A stretch of DNA of 64,000 bases from a virus (IMGVR_UViG_3300020156_000022:32001-96000); one strand, 5' to 3'; shown: positions 2,256-20,047, counted from the first letter of the stretch. Translations and numbers: made by a program. Notes: generated from the sequence alone by a model not told the origin.

Positions 2256-2714
2256 TCACCTCGACAGAAATTCATCGATCTGGTCAAGATGCTCGGGACG
2301 TAAACCACGGTTAGGTTTGGGGGCTATCAACAGTTGTCTGCTGTTGCTTTTCCAAGCATAGGGGATAGCTTCATCATCTGTCCAGATCAACTTATTACCA
2401 GAAGCCAAGACCTTCTCGGCCGCTGCAACCTTGTCATCGTTGTACATGCGCGTAGACCAGGCTGAGCGCAACGCTGGCAATTTAAATAATTTCTCTAGTT
2501 GGTCAGTATACCCACACCAGGAAGTCGCCCATAAAACCTCTACGTGCGGCAAACTGTGGACCTTCCTGACCCGCTCCATCAGCTGTGGTGCCCAACGCAT
2601 CTTCCAAGATGTTCCTAGGTAGTACGCTGTCCCCGAATGAGGCGCGGCTGACCAACCGGATTTGTTTGCGTTTAACACACCATCAACATCAAGGAGCCAT
2701 GTAAATTCATGCAT
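2256..2714 (-). CDS. HAD-superfamily phosphatase (Swiss-Army-knife RNA-repair-type HAD)
   Basis: LLDVDGVLN motif I, WATSW, LIWTDD motif IV; AAAGGAG RBS. Confidence 0.75.
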   Translation of the reverse strand: MHEFTWLLDVDGVLNANKSGWSAAPHSGTAYYLGTSWKMRWAPQLMERVRKVHSLPHVEVLWATSWCGYTDQLEKLFKLPALRSAWSTRMYNDDKVAAAEKVLASGNKLIWTDDEAIPYAWKSNSRQLLIAPKPNRGLRPEHLDQIDEFLSR

Positions 2715-3952: not shown

Positions 3953-4071
3953 CGTAACGTACAGGAATTGAACCTGTTCCTGATACTCGCTCCTATTTCG
4001 CTTACTAGGTCCAGGATAGGACTCTTCGGGTACTCTGTCGGCTTTCTCTGTGCTACCGTACACCACGTCAC
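3953..4071 (-). ncRNA. tRNA-like RNA with a long insert in place of the anticodon arm
   Basis: GTGACGT/ACGTTAC acceptor, D-like GTGTACGGTAGCAC, T arm ACAGG-TTCAATT-CCTGT, about 70 nt central insert. Confidence 0.6.
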
Positions 4072-4426: not shown

Positions 4427-4945
4427 TTAGCTGACATCGGATATGGTCTTTTGGATACCCTTAGCTTTTTTGTGGGGAGTATTCTCCTGTTCAGGCAGTG
4501 GATACTCTTCAAGTTCATTAACATAATGAAATGTCTCCGTGGCTATCCCAAATTTATCGGCCGCATCCCTACAACCTGTAGCACCGCTAGATCTGTCTTT
4601 AATAAAGGCTAGACATGCATCGGCATTTGATTTTTGAACCATTTGTAGATTACGAACTGGCCCAGCTCGCTTGCCATATTTTTTCCAGTCTGCCTGATAA
4701 ACAATCACTTTACACTTCAGTGTATTTCTAGCAAAAATATCAGCTAGCCTATCTGCCCCTCTAGGGCAACCACCATGGACTACAGTTAGCCACTCTGACA
4801 TAGGAATTTTACTGTATTCTGGGTTTTCCTGTAACCATTCGGCAATTGCTTGAATGATTCTATGCTTGATGCTTTCGAAATTGTCCCAGTCCCTTGAACC
4901 AGTAATAAGAATGACGAATTTTTTTCTCAAGGGCACCTCGGGCAT
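4427..4945 (-). CDS. SLOG/YspA-like (DUF2493) protein
   Basis: ILITGSRDW, VVHGGCPRGAD, ADWKKYGKRAGPVRN motifs. Confidence 0.8.
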   Translation of the reverse strand: MPEVPLRKKFVILITGSRDWDNFESIKHRIIQAIAEWLQENPEYSKIPMSEWLTVVHGGCPRGADRLADIFARNTLKCKVIVYQADWKKYGKRAGPVRNLQMVQKSNADACLAFIKDRSSGATGCRDAADKFGIATETFHYVNELEEYPLPEQENTPHKKAKGIQKTISDVS

Positions 4946-5875: not shown

Positions 5876-5925
5876 TAACGTCCTGTTGCTGGAACCTATA
5901 CTAGCATTACAGCAACAGGACGTTA
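5876..5925 (-). terminator. long inverted repeat after the Ro60 gene
   Basis: TAACGTCCTGTTGCTG...CAGCAACAGGACGTTA; the loop holds an extended -10-like TGCTAGTAT. Confidence 0.55.
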
Positions 5926-5933
5926 AGGTAATT

Positions 5934-7553
5934 TCAGATTCGACCTGCTGAGAAGTCAGCGATCACTGACGGAGCGTTGGTGTCGAAACCTGCAACATTC
6001 AGGGTGCCGTTCACATCGTTAGGGTCGCCTACAGTAAACGGAGTAGCTGCCGCACCTACAACTACCAGCTTGGCGTCAATACCCATCTTCTGACGATAAT
6101 CCTTCAATGCACGCTCAGGCTTAATACGTCCAGCCCAAGTTTCGTTGTCGGTGTAAATCTGGAAGGTGTCAACTTCAATCTTGTTCTGCAATGCCCAAAC
6201 CATAGGCTGAGCAATATCAGTACCACCAAATGCCTGACCCTGCAACTTGCGGTTAACAGTAGCCAGATCCATCTTAGCAGTAATACCAAGATCACGGAAG
6301 GAAGTTGAGAAGCCCATGATCTGATACCAAGGCTCAACACGAGCAGTAACCATAGCCATAGCAGCAGTCACCTGTGCACAGCTTAGATCAATACCCAGTG
6401 CCGCAGAACCCATAGAACCAGAAACATCCAGAGCAAGCAAGGTTCGCTTGTTAGCAGGAGTAATGGACTTGAATGCAGCGTGGAATCCAGCATCCAAAGC
6501 ATCAGCAATTACAGGATTAGTTACCCAGTCCTTCTTACGAGTAATTGCATACCAACCATAAGACTCATTACGCTGCATCTGGCCCTCAGTATGAGTAACC
6601 AGAGCTAGAAGATACTGGATTGGGTGAAGACGAGTCTTCGCAATCATGTCAGAATCAACTAGAGCATTAGCAACTGCACGGGTAAACACCATATCGTTGA
6701 ATGCGCCAATACGAGAAAGGCGAGTAATCTGACGAACAAGTGCCTGACCCTTAAGCTGACCGTTAGCGAAAAGCTGCTTCCAAACCTCAGGCTCCTTAAG
6801 GAACTGAGTAGGAATAGTCTCCCAAGGAAGGTTAGTGAAACGCCCCAGAATATCGATAGCCTCAACAGAAGAAGAAGCAAGCTGCATCTTCTGAAAACCA
6901 TCGATAATGTCAGAATCGCCGTCTAGATCAATAAAGACAGGCTTACCAAGGATAAAATTACCTACACGTTGATCAACGCCAGTAGGGTGAGACAGGCGCA
7001 TAAGGTCACGCATAGTCCAACCATCACGCTGACGGTATTTAACAGCCTGGTACGCAAGCTGGTCAGCAGTCTTAGACTCAAACCACTTAGAGATTGCACG
7101 ACGCTTTGCACGACCCCAACCTCCAAGACCTTCGATGAAGGCAGCAAGCTGGTAAACGTGAGTAGCGATACGAGCAACCCTAGGAGCAGCCTCAACTACG
7201 GCCTGCTTAATACCCTGAACAGCCTCAGGCTCAGAAAGCATAAGAGCTAGGACGAAAATAGCAGCCTCGTTACGGTAGGCACGCCCCTTGTCGGACACGT
7301 CAATAACAGTAGCGAGAACAGTCTTAGGGTCCTTAGCGATCATCTTACGGATGAAGTCGACGTTCTGCTTAGTAAGATCCTTCTCACCCACGTAGTAGGT
7401 GCCCTTATCGGTACCAAGAATAAGGAAACGCTCAAGGCGCTGAATGTCAGATACTTCGAAAACGTAACCACCAGCGTTGTTCTTCACCTCATCGGAACGA
7501 GACTTCTCACGCTGAGTAGGTACAGCAGTAGAAAAATTCTTTAGTGCAGACAT
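5934..7553 (-). CDS. Ro60/Rsr TROVE-domain RNA-binding protein
   Basis: KNNAGGYVF..RLERFLILGT..GTYY, GGWGR, QAVKYRQRDGW, C-terminal vWA domain with DVSGSM MIDAS and TDNET; start moved to ATG 7553 (AGAAAGG RBS). Confidence 0.95.
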   Translation of the reverse strand: MSALKNFSTAVPTQREKSRSDEVKNNAGGYVFEVSDIQRLERFLILGTDKGTYYVGEKDLTKQNVDFIRKMIAKDPKTVLATVIDVSDKGRAYRNEAAIFVLALMLSEPEAVQGIKQAVVEAAPRVARIATHVYQLAAFIEGLGGWGRAKRRAISKWFESKTADQLAYQAVKYRQRDGWTMRDLMRLSHPTGVDQRVGNFILGKPVFIDLDGDSDIIDGFQKMQLASSSVEAIDILGRFTNLPWETIPTQFLKEPEVWKQLFANGQLKGQALVRQITRLSRIGAFNDMVFTRAVANALVDSDMIAKTRLHPIQYLLALVTHTEGQMQRNESYGWYAITRKKDWVTNPVIADALDAGFHAAFKSITPANKRTLLALDVSGSMGSAALGIDLSCAQVTAAMAMVTARVEPWYQIMGFSTSFRDLGITAKMDLATVNRKLQGQAFGGTDIAQPMVWALQNKIEVDTFQIYTDNETWAGRIKPERALKDYRQKMGIDAKLVVVGAAATPFTVGDPNDVNGTLNVAGFDTNAPSVIADFSAGRI

Positions 7554-7575
7554 TTGGCTTCTAGCCTTTCTGTTA

Positions 7576-7693
7576 GAACGAATATGTATGGATGATTGGG
7601 GTGCCCTACCATTTTGGGCGTCTGGTTGATCTGCGTACAGCCTACCAGACAGGGATCGAACCTGCAAGATAACCAATCAAGATCGACTCGTTC
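7576..7693 (-). ncRNA. Y RNA (YrlA-like, with permuted tRNA domain), copy 1
   Basis: 5' GAACGAGTCGA..GGTTATC / 3' ACATATTCGTTC stem; T arm GCAGG-TTCGATC-CCTGT, loop-closed acceptor, then D arm; directly upstream of Ro60. Confidence 0.85.
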
Positions 7694-7702
7694 AGAGTCA
7701 AG

Positions 7703-7830
7703 TGTTTCTGACAGGGTATGAACCTGCACATTTGTACTTCTTCAAAGATACTCCCCATAGCTAAGCTATAAGTTTCACTTCCGTACAAACCACCGAGGTT
7801 TCTCGGCTGCTATACTTTGCATACAGAAAC
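7703..7830 (-). ncRNA. tRNA-like RNA with a tetraloop hairpin in place of the anticodon arm and a very long variable arm
   Basis: GTTTCTG/CAGAAAC acceptor, GCCGAG-AAAC-CTCGGT hairpin, TTTGTAC..GTACAAA arm, T arm GCAGG-TTCATAC-CCTGT. Confidence 0.6.
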
Positions 7831-7833
7831 AAG

Positions 7834-7957
7834 TGCGGCGAAAAAAGGATTCGAACCTCTTCAGTGAGATGAGCTTAGCACGTCTAGTCCATGTTCGTCA
7901 ACATGCTAAAAACGTGCAGCCTATGACACTCATCCTAGTCTCATAAACCAAAGCCGC
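7834..7957 (-). ncRNA. tRNA-like RNA with a long central stem
   Basis: GCGGC/GCCGC-A acceptor, T arm AGAGG-TTCGAAT-CCTTT, nested GATGAG/CTCATC and GCACGT/ACGTGC helices. Confidence 0.55.
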
Positions 7958-7963
7958 AAGTAA

Positions 7964-8123
7964 TTGATGAATATGGGAGCGTAAACGAATAATATACAGA
8001 CGCTCTGCCATTGAGCTATACCCCGTTCATCTATATAGCGTTGTTTGCGCTAGTCGGGGCAGGAGGATTCGAACACTCCAACATTCTGTTTCCTCAGATA
8101 ATCGTATTACTTCGACTCATCAA
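7964..8123 (-). ncRNA. Y RNA (YrlA-like, with permuted tRNA domain), copy 2
   Basis: TTGATGAGTCGAAG..GATTATC / CATATTCATCAA; T arm, TGCCCCG/CGGGGTA acceptor, D arm TAGCTCAATGGCAGAGC. Confidence 0.85.
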
Positions 8124-8125
8124 AG

Positions 8126-8182
8126 TGTCCCCGGTTGGATTCGAACCAAACTTACACTACCAGGCGCTAACTGGCAAGGGAC
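8126..8182 (-). ncRNA. D-armless mini tRNA-like RNA
   Basis: GTCCCT/GGGGAC-A acceptor, GCCAG-TTAGCGC-CTGGT arm, TTCGAAT T loop. Confidence 0.5.
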
Positions 8183-8189
8183 TATAATT

Positions 8190-8357
8190 TTACTTTCTAG
8201 GCTTAGGCCAGCGATCAATTACTACCCTAAGATTTTCACATTCCTTCATTGCAGCATCAAAAGCTTTAGTATCTTTAGCTTCTCTCGCTTTTGCTAACTT
8301 TTCTCGTGCTTGCTGTAAAGCCTCTTGAGCTTCTCGTTTACTAGAATAGCTAGCCAA
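8190..8357 (-). CDS. small basic helical protein
   Basis: My translation (TTG start, GAGG RBS): MASYSSKREAQEALQQAREKLAK..., 55 aa. Confidence 0.55.
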   Translation of the reverse strand: MASYSSKREAQEALQQAREKLAKAREAKDTKAFDAAMKECENLRVVIDRWPKPRK

Positions 8358-8366
8358 GGTTACCTC

Positions 8367-8522
8367 TCAGAATAGATTAGCTACAGTTTGAGCGTTGTTA
8401 ACTTCCTTCTGAAGTTGTGCAATAGTAGCTGCGTCAGCCTTGTTCTTTTTAGCTGCTTTTAGTGCAGCCTTAGCCTCTGCAAGTTTCTGAAATGCTTCGT
8501 GGCTGCTTGTAATCTTAGCCAA
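8367..8522 (-). CDS. small Ala/Lys-rich helical protein
   Basis: My translation (TTG start, GGAG RBS): MAKITSSHEAFQKLAEAKAALK..., 51 aa. Confidence 0.55.
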   Translation of the reverse strand: MAKITSSHEAFQKLAEAKAALKAAKKNKADAATIAQLQKEVNNAQTVANLF

Positions 8523-8558
8523 TTTAAATCTCCACAAGATTAGTAATTAATTAATAGA

Positions 8559-8691
8559 AGTGAACATGTAAGTGAAAAACGGGTTTTTAAGTGCTGCCAT
8601 TACACCACCCGCCCATGAAATGGACGAGCTGGGATTCGAACCCAGACCTTTCCTTTATAAGAGAAGATAACCGTTATTCGTTCGGCTCACT
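8559..8691 (-). ncRNA. Y RNA (YrlA-like, with permuted tRNA domain), copy 3
   Basis: AGTGAGCCGAACG..GGTTATC / ACATGTTCACT; T arm CTGGG-TTCGAAT-CCCAG, closed acceptor, D arm TGGTGTAATGGCAGCAC. Confidence 0.85.
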
Positions 8692-8694
8692 AAG

Positions 8695-8771
8695 ATCTCC
8701 TGGCAGGACTCGAACCTGCATGAGGGGTGGCACTAATCCTCGCCAACGTCTACCAATTCCGCCACAGGAGA
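8695..8771 (-). ncRNA. Leu-like tRNA body with an aberrant (possibly pseudoknotted) anticodon arm
   Basis: Canonical acceptor, Leu-type D loop and T arm; centre TGGC-GAGG-ATTAGT-GCCA-CC-CCTC. Confidence 0.55.
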
Positions 8772-8778
8772 AAATTAC

Positions 8779-8844
8779 TTCGAATATGTGTTGATGATGG
8801 TTATTTTTATTTTCAGTAAGATAAACCAACATCTCCGACTCGAA
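8779..8844 (-). ncRNA. short Y RNA-like element (no tRNA domain), copy 4
   Basis: TTCGAGTCGGAG..GTTTATC / ACATATTCGAA, same stem motif as copies 1-3. Confidence 0.65.
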
Positions 8845-8847
8845 TTG

Positions 8848-8921
8848 TGTTTCTGGCAGGAATCGAACCTGCTACCTTCGCTGTATATATTACGCTGCTC
8901 AATCCAATGAGCTACAGAAAC
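8848..8921 (-). ncRNA. tRNA with a degenerate anticodon arm (identity undetermined)
   Basis: Perfect acceptor, D and T arms; anticodon region GCGTAATATATACAGC cannot form a 5 bp/7 nt arm. Confidence 0.6.
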
Positions 8922-8927
8922 ATATAA

Positions 8928-9014
8928 TCAGGATATAATTTAGACATCGGAAAGCCCAGACAACGCTGAGCGAATTCACCATTTGAAAGATAACCGATGA
9001 TCCTTCGACCCTGA
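8928..9014 (-). ncRNA. Y RNA-like element (no tRNA domain), copy 5
   Basis: TCAGGGTCGAAG..CATCGGTTATC / CCGATG..ATATCCTGA. Confidence 0.7.
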
Positions 9015-9020
9015 AACTTG

Positions 9021-9112
9021 AAGTTGAACATGTGTTTGAGATCAAACTATGCCACTATGGGCAATTAATTTTGGAGTAATTATCTGATAATCGATCTCAT
9101 TCGGCTCAACTT
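9021..9112 (-). ncRNA. Y RNA-like element (no tRNA domain), copy 6
   Basis: AAGTTGAGCCGAATGAGATCGATTATC / GATCTCA..ACATGTTCAACTT. Confidence 0.7.
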
Positions 9113-9113
9113 G

Positions 9114-9189
9114 TACTCCGTACCGGATTTGAACCGGTGCTCTTCTGATTGAGAATCAGATGTCTTAGACCAGACTAGACGAACGGAGC
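9114..9189 (-). tRNA. tRNA-Glu(CTC)
   Basis: Cloverleaf; loop TTCTCAA. Confidence 0.9.
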
Positions 9190-9224
9190 ATGTCTGTAAG
9201 CACTAGCTGCTTACAGGTATTACC

Positions 9225-9683
9225 TTACACTACCTTCAGGCTGTTGTCAACCGCATCATAAAAAGATCGACTATCTCCGTACAGATATGCATCAACAATT
9301 CGAGGCACAGTAAAAAAAGTATTGGCAGGAAGGGCATTCATATTAAACCAACGCCATTCTTCACACTTATCAGGTTCCATTACCTTAGGGTTGCCTGAAA
9401 GCCATATGCATACCATGCCAATATCAACATAATGCTTAGGCATGTATTCAGTCAGATTAATAGTGGAAATAGGGATAGGCCGAGTAGTCTTTACCTGAGA
9501 GCCAATTTCTTCTGCCATCTCACGGTAAGCTGTATCAGCAAACGACTCACCATACTCAAGTGTTCCTCCTGGAAGACCCCATTGCCCTGCACCATGAGAA
9601 CCCTTACGCTTACCTAGCAGGATAAGCTCCGGCATTCTTACTACAAGAACACCAATACCTACCTTGGTAATATTAGACATCAA
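9225..9683 (-). CDS. Nudix hydrolase
   Basis: Nudix box GGTLEYGESFADTAYREMAEEIG; EPDKCEEWRWF. Confidence 0.9.
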   Translation of the reverse strand: MMSNITKVGIGVLVVRMPELILLGKRKGSHGAGQWGLPGGTLEYGESFADTAYREMAEEIGSQVKTTRPIPISTINLTEYMPKHYVDIGMVCIWLSGNPKVMEPDKCEEWRWFNMNALPANTFFTVPRIVDAYLYGDSRSFYDAVDNSLKVV

Positions 9684-15637: not shown

Positions 15638-15692
15638 GCACCAGCTAGGAATCGAACCCAGTATGCCACTGAACAGGTTTGCAACCCTGTTT
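15638..15692 (-). pseudogene. 3'-half tRNA fragment (GCA anticodon arm plus T arm)
   Basis: ACAGG..TTGCAAA..CCTGT and CTGGG-TTCGATT-CCTAG; no D arm or 5' acceptor strand. Confidence 0.4.
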
Positions 15693-17805: not shown

Positions 17806-18156
17806 CTAGTATGCCTTATATTCAGCATGTCCAGCACTGACCATTCGATCATTGATGCTAGGAGTTTTAGTAGGGTCTTCTCCCCAAAGCCATAACTCTC
17901 CTAAATATCGGCCATACTTTTCTTTTTTATCCTTGGTAGTCATAACATATAGATACTTAAAACTACCATCAGGATTAGTAAGTAATTTCAATAACCATGC
18001 CCTGGCATTCTTACCGGCTTGTGTGGGTAGCTCAGGAGCATTAATTCTGTTGAATCTAATATGCATGTCTTGAAGAAGATCACAACCAGCGTCTCGCCTT
18101 ATTGTGATTGTATCAGCATCATAGACAGTTAAGATTTCAGCAGGGTAATCATACAT
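17806..18156 (-). CDS. thermonuclease (SNase-like)
   Basis: VYDADTI, IRFNRINAPE, KYGRYL, INDRMVSAGHA; start moved to ATG 18156 (GGAG RBS). Confidence 0.85.
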   Translation of the reverse strand: MYDYPAEILTVYDADTITIRRDAGCDLLQDMHIRFNRINAPELPTQAGKNARAWLLKLLTNPDGSFKYLYVMTTKDKKEKYGRYLGELWLWGEDPTKTPSINDRMVSAGHAEYKAY

Positions 18157-18278
18157 ATTTATCTCCCATCGTATAAGAGATAAATCGGTAATAATTGAGG
18201 GTTGCAACTTCCAGTACAGCCGTGCAGCTTTCCCGGTTAACCAGATAGCTTTCTCACCTGTTCGTGGACCTCAATAAG

Positions 18279-19725: not shown

Positions 19726-19841
19726 GCTGGAATCGAACCAGCGATGCAGGCTTTGCCCCGCATACCTCTCCAGAGGTGCTGTTATATAGGAATCGAACCT
19801 ACCACCATAGTGTTACCTATGTCCTCCCCAAGAGGGTCAGC
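19726..19841 (-). ncRNA. tandem pair of acceptor-less tRNA-like units
   Basis: Two repeats of [CCTC-TGG-GAGG hairpin][hairpin][GG-TTCGATT-CC T arm]. Confidence 0.45.
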
Positions 19842-19971: not shown

Positions 19972-20047
19972 CCCGAGCAACAGGATTCGAACCTGCATGT
20001 TTCCGTTAACCTTTCAACTGGTTCGTAGCCAGAGGGTATACGCCCGG
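19972..20047 (-). tRNA. D-armless tRNA-Arg(ACG)-like RNA
   Basis: CCGGGCG/TGCTCGG acceptor, CTGG-CTACGAA-CCAG, long 3' variable region, canonical T arm. Confidence 0.55.

What the first reader, a model, noticed from the sequence alone, without database searches (positions are those of the whole stretch)
5934..9112. Phage Ro60 gene with an array of six Y-RNA paralogues carrying different effector modules
Seen: six elements upstream of the TROVE gene (7576-7693, 7964-8123, 8559-8691, 8779-8844, 8928-9014, 9021-9112) share one terminal stem: 5' G[AG]G[CT]CG[AG], then G[GAT]TTATC a few nt later, and 3' [CT]AT[AG]T[TC]C. The closing pairs differ in sequence but still pair (GAAC/GTTC, TTGAT/ATCAA, AGT/ACT, TTC/GAA, TCA/TGA, AAGTT/AACTT). 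Copies 1-3 carry a circularly permuted tRNA domain (T arm, loop-closed acceptor, D arm). Copies 4-6 carry short unrelated A/U-rich or hairpin modules. Established: bacterial Ro60 (Rsr) binds Y RNAs through a GNCGAA-type stem, YrlA RNAs have this permuted tRNA domain, and Y RNA can tether Ro60 to effectors such as PNPase; typical loci have about one or two Y RNAs. Inference: this is a modular Ro60 RNP kit in which one protein is directed by six RNA adaptors, possibly to host nucleases, RNA-repair enzymes or tRNA-targeting defence toxins.
Basis: partly seen in the sequence, partly recalled or inferred. Interest (0 to 1): 0.9.

Follow-up and report, generated by a model that had tools for sequence, protein, structure and literature searches.

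The report
Six-member Y-RNA array beside phage Ro60
An uncultured phage carries, in one tightly packed operon with tRNA genes, six small RNAs that share the binding stem of known Ro60 partner RNAs (Y RNAs) but have different interiors, followed by the Ro60 gene. Such arrays turn out to be common in related phages, although I found none described in print.

Summary
Exactly six elements in the whole 105-kb contig match GRGYCGR..GDTTATC...YATRTYC. All lie on the Ro60 strand within 1.6 kb upstream of an intact Ro60 gene (TROVE plus Ro60-vWA). Each folds as closing stem, CGRA internal loop, upper stem, UUAUC, then a variable module.

- **Independent detection:** a covariance model trained mostly on other phages recovers five of the six (E ≤ 5.5e-5) and nothing else in 64 kb. 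It misses Y2.
- **Structure:** both helices covary across 89 elements.
- **Types:** Y1-Y3 carry the YrlA-type permuted tRNA domain, though they score below Rfam's threshold. Y4-Y6 are short, YrlB-like.
- **Packing:** the RNAs sit within 0-9 nt of tRNAs or tRNA-like elements, between a conserved promoter-like site and a strong hairpin after Ro60. This suggests one precursor cut by tRNA-processing enzymes.

The array is not unique. Among 80 viral Ro60 loci, arrays of 4-7 are frequent, including Rhodococcus phage Trina. Bacterial loci gave at most 4 hits to the same model, usually 1.

I found papers describing only two or three phage Y-like RNAs per locus. This scan has already noted similar many-RNA arrays beside Ro60-like genes on other phage DNA. 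Ro60 binding and distinct effectors per RNA remain inference.

The parts
9222..9250 (-). Promoter-like site: TTGACA, 17 nt, TAAGGT (TG two bases upstream), overlapping the end of the NUDIX ORF
   Evidence: Read. The block TTGACA..N17..TA[AG][AG]GT is conserved upstream of tRNA-Glu(CUC) in the two nearest relatives, L008 and L009. The simple consensus scan did not list it, because only 3 of 6 bases match in the -10 hexamer. Inference.
9113..9189 (-). tRNA-Glu(CUC), first gene of the array; Y6 begins at the next base
   Evidence: Rfam tRNA 64.6 bits; ARAGORN.
9021..9112 (-). Y6: short Y-RNA-like element (92 nt); handle plus an A/U-rich segment and a small hairpin
   Evidence: Motif; fold -21.7 kcal/mol, z -3.1; R1 35.7 bits, E 5.3e-6; upper-stem duplex -11.1 kcal/mol. 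A syntenic element follows tRNA-Glu(CUC) in L009.
8928..9014 (-). Y5: short Y-RNA-like element (87 nt); module UUAUCUUUCAAAUGGUGAA plus a GC hairpin
   Evidence: Motif; fold; R1 31.4 bits, E 5.5e-5. A 25-nt stretch spanning the upper stem, UUAUC and the start of the module is identical in L016, and 21 nt of it in L040.
8847..8921 (-). tRNA-like spacer with intact acceptor, D and T arms but no regular anticodon arm
   Evidence: Rfam tRNA 44.2 bits; ARAGORN calls a 4-base 'anticodon'; fold z -3.6.
8779..8844 (-). Y4: minimal Y-RNA-like element (66 nt); handle closing a 21-nt A/U-rich loop
   Evidence: Motif; fold; R1 68 bits (in the training set). Near-identical module in L009:5105-5170.
8694..8771 (-). 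tRNA-like spacer with a Leu-type D loop and an irregular anticodon region
   Evidence: ARAGORN tRNA-???; below the Rfam tRNA threshold; fold.
8559..8691 (-). Y3: YrlA-type element (133 nt); handle, V hairpin, T arm, closed acceptor-like hairpin, D arm
   Evidence: Motif; R1 36.2 bits, E 4.3e-6; Rfam YrlA 18.2 bits over model positions 25-83. Its module is the best conserved across phages, with scores of 48-59 against a 99th-percentile background of 43.
8367..8537 (-). Small ORF A (about 51-56 aa, helical, Lys/Ala-rich) inside the array
   Evidence: ORF and translation. Homologous ORFs sit at the same place in L008 and L009. No Pfam or PHROG match.
8190..8357 (-). Small ORF B (55 aa, helical) inside the array
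   Evidence: ORF and translation. Conserved position in L008 and L009. Weak phrog_31635 match only.
8125..8187 (-). Mini tRNA-like element (acceptor stem, one central hairpin, T arm; no D arm), ending 1 nt before Y2
   Evidence: T-loop motif GGTTCGAATCC at 8137-8147; fold. Not called by ARAGORN or Rfam.
7964..8123 (-). Y2: YrlA-type element (160 nt) with a 31-nt insert in the acceptor-like hairpin; the weakest of the six
   Evidence: Motif; fold with closed ends; Rfam YrlA 21 bits, E 0.23, full-length alignment. R1 gives only 6.4 bits with filters off and the upper-stem duplex is only -5.5 kcal/mol.
7834..7957 (-). tRNA-like element (acceptor stem plus T arm) with a structured insert of about 80 nt
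   Evidence: Fold -46.5 kcal/mol, z -4.7. A homologue in L008:5725-5843 has a different inner hairpin sequence that still pairs.
7703..7830 (-). Second tRNA-like element with a structured insert; acceptor GUUUCUG/CAGAAAC as in 8847-8921
   Evidence: Fold z -2.8; sequence.
7576..7693 (-). Y1: YrlA-type element (118 nt), 22 nt upstream of the Ro60 start codon
   Evidence: Motif; Rfam YrlA 29.8 bits, E 6.7e-4, full-length, and the best YrlA match in the whole contig; R1 37.2 bits, E 2.5e-6.
5934..7553 (-). Ro60/Rsr orthologue (539 aa): TROVE ring plus Ro60-type vWA domain with the MIDAS DVSGS
   Evidence: Pfam; phrog_850 1e-88; PDB 2NVO E 3.5e-104 and 1YVP E 3.7e-82. D376, S378 and S380 are invariant in alignment A2.
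5876..5925 (-). 16-bp hairpin just after the Ro60 stop codon, with no U tract: likely operon end or 3' stabiliser
   Evidence: Fold -28.3 kcal/mol, z -5.2. Function is inferred.

Best explanation
This is a phage Ro60 ribonucleoprotein operon. One transcript probably runs from a promoter near 9250 to a hairpin near 5876. It encodes tRNA-Glu, six Y RNAs interleaved with tRNA-like elements, two small proteins, and Ro60. The six RNAs share one handle: a closing stem that includes GRGY/RUYC, an internal loop with CGRA on the 5' side and about 7-9 nt ending in CAU on the 3' side, an upper stem, then UUAUC. This handle corresponds to the Ro60-binding region of bacterial Y RNAs (the GNCGAA-type motif and the YUAY of YrlA). 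Ro60 most likely binds every one of them through the handle (inferred). The interiors differ. Y1-Y3 display a YrlA-type permuted tRNA (T arm, closed acceptor-like hairpin, D arm). Y4-Y6 display short A/U-rich loops or hairpins. The flanking tRNAs and tRNA-like elements most likely act as cutting signals: cleavage at tRNA 5' ends (RNase P) and after the discriminator (RNase Z type) would release Y RNAs with a 1-3 nt leader and a 3-9 nt tail (inferred from spacing). By analogy with Deinococcus, Salmonella and Thermus phage phiLo, the RNAs then gate Ro60 or tether it to host enzymes such as PNPase, with different modules giving different partners or substrates (inferred, untested).
For: (1) Specificity: there are six motif hits, all on the Ro60 strand within 1.6 kb upstream, against 0.005 expected. 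(2) Model R1 recovers 5 of the 6 with no false hit in 64 kb. (3) Across 87 phage Ro60 loci (1.07 Mb), all 111 hits at E <= 0.01 are on the Ro60 strand. Across 80 bacterial Ro60 loci, all 33 hits are too, mostly within 350 nt upstream of rsr, where YrlA and YrlB are known to lie. (4) Covariation on 89 elements: 85.7% of cells are paired against 62% in shuffles and 31-45% when slid, and 15 of 16 pairs show double changes. Cognate upper-stem strands give -9.5 kcal/mol against -4.5 for permuted partners, p 2.6e-45. (5) Y1-Y3 align to Rfam YrlA, and Y1 is the best YrlA match in the contig. (6) Ro60 is intact. (7) For processing: 31 of 92 elements start within 10 nt after a tRNA (mode 2) and 22 of 92 end 3-10 nt before one (mode 4). 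In the window the gaps are 0-9 nt. M. smegmatis YrlA and YrlB are cut from one precursor (PMC4201824). (8) Precedent: phiLo Ro60 binds two upstream Yrl RNAs with a CGAA bulge and forms a complex with host PNPase (PMC12135203). (9) Some module types recur in distant phages.
Against: There are no transcript or binding data, because this is a metagenomic contig. The Rfam YrlA scores (29.8, 21 and 18.2 bits) are far below the 69-bit gathering score. Y2 is not found by R1 and has a weak upper stem. Y1 (GUCGAU) and Y4 (GUCGGA) each depart by one base from GNCGAAN0-1G. The motif and the element finder were derived from these sequences, and alignment A6 is fitted to the model structure, so the pairing percentages lean high. 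The promoter did not pass the generic scan, and the terminal hairpin lacks a U tract. Nothing shows that the modules bind different partners, and no RtcB is encoded on the contig, which is about 77% complete.
Confidence: 0.78

Rival explanations
1. The elements are cis-acting parts of the Ro60 operon transcript rather than stable trans-acting RNAs. They would act as processing or stability signals, or as Ro60 autoregulatory sites. For example, Ro60 binding to Y1, 22 nt before its own start codon, could control its translation.
For: Y1 ends 22 nt upstream of the Ro60 ATG. All elements lie in one apparent transcription unit. No expression data exist.
Against: Most elements are 0.4-1.6 kb from Ro60 and are flanked by tRNAs that would excise them. 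In some relatives copies lie several kb away or downstream of Ro60. Published phage and bacterial counterparts are stable, Ro60-bound RNAs (PMC4201824, PMC12135203).
Confidence: 0.08
2. The shared handle is bound by something other than Ro60, such as the two small helical proteins encoded inside the array or a host factor. Alternatively the RNAs act without protein, as tRNA-mimic decoys for host tRNA-targeting nucleases.
For: Two conserved small ORFs sit inside the array in the window, L008 and L009. Several anticodon-defective tRNA-like elements accompany the Y RNAs. Binding was not tested.
Against: The handle tracks Ro60 genes and their strand in 167 phage and bacterial loci. It carries the motif implicated in Ro60 binding (PMC4201824). 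The small ORFs were seen only in the window, L008 and L009; they were not looked for in the other loci that have the handle.
Confidence: 0.08
3. The elements are decaying tRNA genes or tRNA-derived repeats in a tRNA-rich region, with no function of their own.
For: They sit in a tRNA array. Y1-Y3 contain T and D arms, and Y3 gives a sub-threshold tRNA hit of 26.1 bits.
Against: Y4-Y6 have no tRNA parts yet keep the handle. The handle covaries across 89 elements. The arm order is permuted in the YrlA manner, not that of a decayed tRNA. Module types are conserved in phages whose Ro60 is only 55-58% identical.
Confidence: 0.03

Closest known systems
Bacterial and mycobacteriophage YrlA/YrlB Y RNAs with Rsr (Rfam RF02553; Chen et al. 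2014, PMC4201824)
   Same: The RNAs are encoded on the Ro60 strand within a few kb upstream. They carry the 5' GNCGAA-type motif and the YUAY that begins the V region. Y1-Y3 have the T arm, closed acceptor-like hairpin and D arm in YrlA order. A long, tRNA-like RNA is paired with short hairpin-type RNAs. In M. smegmatis the RNAs are processed from one precursor.
   Different: There are six copies (three long, three short) instead of the one or two reported per locus. The sequences are too diverged to reach Rfam's gathering score. They are interleaved with tRNAs and anticodon-defective tRNA-like elements. UUAUC is kept even in the short RNAs that lack a tRNA domain.
Thermus phage phiLo Ro60 with Yrl1 and Yrl2 (PMC12135203)
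   Same: A phage-encoded Ro60 has Y-like RNAs immediately upstream. The architecture is stem, bulge, stem, with CGAA in the bulge. In phiLo, binding to Ro60 and a ternary complex with host PNPase were shown.
   Different: phiLo has two RNAs and this locus has six. The phiLo paper, as far as I read it, does not describe a tRNA-punctuated array. Nothing here has been tested biochemically.
Deinococcus radiodurans Rsr-Yrn1-PNPase (RYPER) and the Salmonella rsr-yrlBA-rtcBA operon (PMC4201824; PMC7790460)
   Same: They share the concept that a Y RNA gates Ro60 and tethers it to an effector, and the link to tRNA damage and repair. The neighbourhood here also holds a HAD domain of the 'Swiss Army Knife RNA repair' type and a NUDIX hydrolase.
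   Different: No RtcB, RtcA or PNPase is encoded on this contig (for RtcB), so any effector would be host-encoded. The module set is larger and more varied.
Metazoan Y RNAs (Rfam RF00019); multiple Y RNAs per Ro60 in vertebrates
   Same: One Ro60 has several Y RNAs that share a terminal binding stem and differ in their loops. From memory, and not tested here, vertebrate Y RNAs also read GGUCCGA...GUUAUC near the 5' end.
   Different: There is no match to the metazoan Y_RNA model at E <= 10. Metazoan Y RNAs have no tRNA-like domain. These are operon-encoded rather than separate Pol III genes.

Membership tests
Ro60/Rsr protein (TROVE) | TROVE (HEAT-repeat ring) domain | tested here: met
   PF05731 E 1.4e-34. 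Full-length phmmer matches to 2NVO (E 3.5e-104) and 1YVP (E 3.7e-82).
Ro60/Rsr protein (TROVE) | C-terminal Ro60-type vWA domain with the MIDAS motif DxSxS | tested here: met
   PF25045 E 3.3e-59. D376, V377, S378, G379 and S380 are invariant in alignment A2.
YrlA (Rfam RF02553) | Score at or above Rfam's gathering threshold (69 bits) | tested here: not met
   Y1 29.8 bits (E 6.7e-4), Y2 21 bits and Y3 18.2 bits; Y4-Y6 give no hit. Mycobacteriophage ET08, a published YrlA host, also reaches only 37.4 bits in a 66-kb search.
YrlA (Chen et al. 2014 criteria) | Best genome-wide match to the YrlA model lies within 4 kb of Ro60 on the same strand | tested here: met
   The top hit in the 105-kb contig is Y1, 22 nt upstream of Ro60.
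YrlA (Chen et al. 2014 criteria) | GNCGAAN0-1G motif near the 5' end | tested here: met
   Exact in Y2 (GUCGAAG), Y3 (GCCGAACG), Y5 (GUCGAAG) and Y6 (GCCGAAUG). Y1 (GUCGAU) and Y4 (GUCGGAG) each differ by one base.
YrlA (Chen et al. 2014 criteria) | Conserved YUAY beginning the V region, then T arm, acceptor-like stem-loop and D arm | tested here: met
   UUAUC follows the upper stem in all six. T, AS and D are aligned by cmscan in Y1-Y3 only. Y4-Y6 lack the tRNA domain, so they are not YrlA.
Y RNA in the functional sense | Stable RNA bound by Ro60 in vivo | not testable with these tools
   No transcriptome or binding data exist for this metagenomic phage.
Short Y RNAs (YrlB/Yrn2 type; no Rfam model) | Ro60-locus RNA with the binding motif that folds as a long hairpin without a tRNA domain | tested here: met
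   Y4-Y6 folds; R1 hits. The family has no formal definition, so this is a resemblance only.
Metazoan Y_RNA (RF00019) | Match to the Rfam model | tested here: not met
   No RF00019 hit at E <= 10 in 7400-9400.
tRNA (RF00005) | Cloverleaf above the gathering score, or an ARAGORN call | tested here: not met
   None of Y1-Y6 is called by ARAGORN. The best Rfam tRNA score is 26.1 bits, below 29, for part of Y3.

The most novel reading that the evidence does not exclude
Ro60-encoding phages carry expandable sets of 4-7 or more Y RNAs that work as interchangeable adaptors or decoys. One constant handle loads them onto the phage Ro60 ring, and the conserved, distinct modules (tRNA mimics of several kinds, A/U-rich loops, hairpins) each engage a different host enzyme or RNA. 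Candidates include PNPase and other exonucleases, tRNA-modifying or repair enzymes, and anticodon nucleases used in anti-phage defence. The accompanying anticodon-defective tRNA-like genes would serve both as processing punctuation and as further decoys. If so, the array would be a programmable RNA-based system for host takeover or counter-defence.
Probability: 0.2. Interest if true: 0.85.

Novelty: new variant of a known kind. Interest (0 to 1): 0.58.

Why it matters
Ro60-Y RNA particles are conserved from bacteria to humans, yet what the variable part of a Y RNA does is known only for a few cases, chiefly PNPase tethering. A phage operon offers a natural experiment in module function. It has six RNAs with one handle and six different interiors, the same design recurs across related phages, and some module types are conserved. 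Cultured relatives with comparable arrays exist, including Rhodococcus phage Trina and Streptomyces BE-cluster phages, so RIP-seq, pull-downs and deletions are feasible. There is also a practical annotation point. These RNAs are unannotated or mis-called in public phage genomes, for example as 'tRNA-Ser' in Mildred21 and as a tRNA pseudogene in Trina. Rfam's YrlA model misses them at its threshold.

Tried and rejected
- A generic stem-plus-motif scanner was too permissive: it gave 24 hits per shuffled genome, so I dropped it.
- MAFFT alignment of the six whole elements (A1) was out of register.
- Fixed-column scoring of the upper stem on A4 gave only 52% pairing, because bulges shift the register. 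I replaced it with the cognate-versus-permuted duplex test and the model-based alignment.
- A relaxed regex-plus-duplex detector undercounts. It finds 4 of the window's 6, so its array sizes are lower bounds. It gave 5 hits on the opposite strands against 143 on the Ro60 strands.
- blastn-short was too insensitive for comparing modules.
- cmsearch with filters off scored Y1 and Y3 lower than the default run. I did not pursue the cause.
- Reviews PMC10870794, PMC6047535 and PMC6542706, and the supplement of Chen 2014, are not held. I therefore could not check whether multiple hits per phage were tabulated there.
- RtcB is absent from the contig.
- I considered and rejected three readings: decayed tRNAs, small ORFs (spurious ORFs at 7541-7729 and 8674-8832 overlap the elements), and metazoan-type Y RNA membership.

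Full report
**What is there.** All features lie on the minus strand. An intact Ro60/Rsr gene occupies 5934-7553. It has a TROVE domain (E 1.4e-34) and a Ro60-type vWA domain (E 3.3e-59), and it matches D. radiodurans Rsr 2NVO at E 3.5e-104 and Xenopus Ro60 at E 3.7e-82. The MIDAS residues are conserved.

The 1.6 kb upstream reads, 5' to 3', as follows:
- tRNA-Glu(CUC), 9189-9113
- Y6, 9112-9021
- Y5, 9014-8928
- a tRNA-like element, 8921-8847
- Y4, 8844-8779
- a tRNA-like element, 8771-8694
- Y3, 8691-8559
- two small ORFs, 8537-8190
- a mini tRNA-like element, 8187-8125
- Y2, 8123-7964
- two tRNA-like elements with large inserts, 7957-7834 and 7830-7703
- Y1, 7693-7576, which ends 22 nt before the Ro60 start codon

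The motif was derived from these same six elements, so I built an independent test. I took 14 short elements from 11 other phage Ro60 loci plus Y4 and built covariance model R1. R1 finds Y1, Y3, Y5 and Y6 at E 2.5e-6 to 5.5e-5, and nothing else on either strand of the 64-kb window up to E = 10. Y2 is missed: it scores 6.4 bits with filters off and has the weakest upper stem at -5.5 kcal/mol. Its case rests on the sequence motif, the fold and a 21-bit full-length alignment to Rfam YrlA.

**Structure and covariation.** The shared handle has five parts, in this order:
- a variable closing stem continuing into GRGY/RUYC
- an asymmetric internal loop, with CGRA(N) on the 5' side and about 7-9 nt ending in CAU on the 3' side
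- an upper stem of 7-10 bp
- UUAUC
- the variable module

On 25 short elements the lower stem shows U-A/C-G and A-U/G-C exchanges inside the motif and free covariation outside it. That set was selected for pairing, so the 100% figure is partly by construction.

On the model-based alignment of 89 distinct phage and bacterial elements, 85.7% of cells pair, against 62% in shuffles and 31-45% in slid controls. Fifteen of 16 pairs show changes on both sides, and the covariation score is 0.70 against 0.27 (0 of 500 shuffles reach it). That alignment is fitted to the structure. An alignment-free test agrees with it: the two strands of the upper stem from the same element give a mean of -9.5 kcal/mol, against -4.5 when partners are permuted among 92 elements (p 2.6e-45).

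**What the elements are.** Chen et al. 2014 (PMC4201824) define YrlA by four things: a 5' GNCGAAN0-1G motif, a YUAY that opens the V region, then a T arm, an acceptor-like stem-loop and a D arm, and a location within 4 kb of Ro60 on the same strand.
- Y2, Y3, Y5 and Y6 match the 5' motif exactly. Y1 and Y4 each differ by one base.
- UUAUC is the YUAY.
- Rfam's YrlA model aligns T, AS and D in Y1-Y3 (29.8, 21 and 18.2 bits). Y1 is the best YrlA match in the contig.

All these scores are far below the 69-bit gathering score, so by Rfam's own rule they are not members. They are diverged relatives. Mycobacteriophage ET08, one of the published hosts of YrlA, also reaches only 37.4 bits. Y4-Y6 lack any tRNA domain and resemble the short YrlB/Yrn2 type. 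There is no match to the metazoan Y_RNA model.

**Link to Ro60 across genomes.** In 87 phage Ro60 loci (1.07 Mb), R1 gives 111 hits at E <= 0.01, every one on the Ro60 strand and nearly all upstream. The strict 5' motif has zero hits on the opposite strand of the 80 IMG/VR loci. In 80 bacterial Ro60 loci, mostly Actinomycetota (0.82 Mb), R1 gives 33 hits. All are on the Ro60 strand and most lie within 350 nt upstream of rsr, the place where YrlA and YrlB are known. The handle is therefore a Ro60-associated RNA signature, not a feature of tRNA arrays as such.

Strict-motif counts per viral locus run from 0 to 7: 29 loci have none (many use a variant such as GGCCGA..GGTTACC, as in ET08), 27 have 1-2, 21 have 3-5, and 3 have 6-7. 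Combining the detectors, arrays of about 6-7 occur in L010, L016, L024, L042, L044 and L048. L048 has the same length as Rhodococcus phage Trina and shares its Y-like elements at the corresponding positions. The two nearest relatives, with Ro60 74% and 71% identical, keep the same order with four copies each: tRNA-Glu(CUC), short Y RNAs, a tRNA, a Y3-type RNA, two small ORFs, a Y RNA and tRNA-like element, then Ro60. Bacterial loci gave at most four hits and usually one, but R1 was trained on phage sequences, so that contrast is biased. In public annotations these RNAs are blank or mis-called: 'tRNA-Ser(tga)' in Mildred21 and a tRNA pseudogene in Trina.

**Literature.** Phage Ro60 and YrlA-like RNAs are in print, with 22 phages in Chen 2014. 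At least two Y RNAs are known in each characterised bacterium. Thermus phage phiLo has two Yrl RNAs that bind its Ro60 and, together with it, host PNPase (PMC12135203). A Listeria phage has three abundant RNAs upstream of a Ro-like gene (PMC12282133). I found no paper describing arrays of four or more, or their tRNA punctuation. Several reviews and the Chen supplement are not held. Earlier notes of this scan report similar many-RNA arrays beside Ro60-like genes in unrelated phages. Those are unchecked leads, not support.

**Mechanism.** Shown here: the gene order, the shared covarying handle, the Ro60 association, the diversity of modules, and the conservation of some module types in distant phages:
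- The Y3 module scores 48-59 against a 99th-percentile background of 43.
- A 25-nt stretch of Y5, spanning the upper stem, UUAUC and the start of the module, is identical in L016.
- The Y4 loop is shared with L009.

The following steps are inferred:
- **A single transcript.** The promoter-like TTGACA-17-TAAGGT at 9250-9222 is conserved in L008 and L009, and a -28.3 kcal/mol hairpin follows Ro60.
- **Release by tRNA-processing enzymes.** In the window the gaps between Y RNAs and neighbouring tRNA or tRNA-like elements are 0-9 nt. Across phages, 31 of 92 elements start within 10 nt after a tRNA and 22 of 92 end 3-10 nt before one.
- **Ro60 binding through the handle, and gating or tethering to host factors such as PNPase.** These rest on precedent only.

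That each module recruits a different effector is plausible and untested. The contig, about 77% complete, encodes no RtcB. Nearby genes include a NUDIX hydrolase, a 'Swiss Army Knife RNA repair' HAD domain and a SLOG-family protein.

**Origin of the contig.** It is an IMG/VR viral contig with 42.8% GC and 29 tRNAs. Its Ro60 is closest to Streptomyces BE-cluster phages, at 57%. Its helicase and a glycosyltransferase are closest to Microbacterium phage Magritte, at 47-52%. It is therefore an actinobacteriophage relative whose host is unknown.

**Verdict.** The identification as a Ro60/Y-RNA array is well supported by computation. The claim of uniqueness is not, because such arrays are common in related phages. 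The effector-adaptor model is a reasonable inference awaiting experiment. I class it as a new variant of a known kind, of moderate to good interest.

Noticed in passing
window 7834-7957 (-) and L008:5725-5843: A 124-nt RNA with a tRNA acceptor stem and T arm encloses a strongly folded insert of about 80 nt (-46.5 kcal/mol, z -4.7). It is conserved in the nearest relative, where the inner hairpin has a different sequence but still pairs. It matches no Rfam family.
   Followed up: partly
window 7703-7830 (-), 8125-8187 (-), 8694-8771 (-), 8847-8921 (-): Four more tRNA-like elements have intact acceptor and T arms but a missing or irregular anticodon arm (one also lacks a D arm). They are interleaved with the Y RNAs. 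They may be processing punctuation, decoys, or both.
   Followed up: partly
window 8367-8537 (-) and 8190-8357 (-): Two adjacent small ORFs encode helical, Lys/Ala-rich proteins of about 55 aa inside the RNA array. They are conserved at the same position in L008 and L009 and match no Pfam family.
   Followed up: partly
L004:4114-4185 (Streptomyces phage Mildred21); L006:4679-4887 (Rhodococcus phage Trina): Published annotations call Y-RNA-like elements 'tRNA-Ser(tga)' and 'tRNA-OTHER' pseudogene respectively. In other relatives the elements sit in unannotated gaps.
   Followed up: partly
window 2256-2714 (-), 4427-4945 (-), 9225-9683 (-), 17806-18207 (-): The neighbouring genes have an RNA or nucleotide-metabolism flavour: a HAD domain of the 'Swiss Army Knife RNA repair' type, a YspA/SLOG-family protein, a NUDIX hydrolase directly upstream of the array, and an SNase-like nuclease.
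   Followed up: no
window 3964-3974, 15648-15658, 19729-19739, 19789-19799, 19983-19993 (-): Perfect T-loop motifs (GGTTCRANNCC) lie outside any called tRNA. This suggests more tRNA-like or tRNA-mimic RNAs elsewhere in the tRNA region.
   Followed up: no
L009:5741-5861: A variant Y element reads GAGUCGUA...GGUUAAC instead of ...UUAUC, so the strict motif undercounts copies. Mycobacteriophage ET08 uses GGCCGA...GGUUA[CU]C three times upstream of Ro60 (L007:4592, 4690, 4868).
   Followed up: partly
L002:6920-7077 (Streptomyces phage TunaTartare): There is a sub-threshold match to the manA RNA motif (45.6 bits against a gathering score of 55.2) between tRNA genes, upstream of the Y-RNA elements.
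   Followed up: no
L096 (contig CAINGU010000031.1, labelled as a cyanobacterial MAG): This 110-kb contig has a Ro60 52% identical to the window's and three low-GC Y-like hits just upstream. It looks like a related phage binned into a bacterial MAG.
   Followed up: no
window 7577-7692 and 8559-8691: cmsearch with filters off scored Y1 and Y3 far lower (13.3 and 10 bits) than the default run (37.2 and 36.2 bits). The cause is probably how long inserts are handled, which makes this a technical caveat for any census with this model.
   Followed up: no
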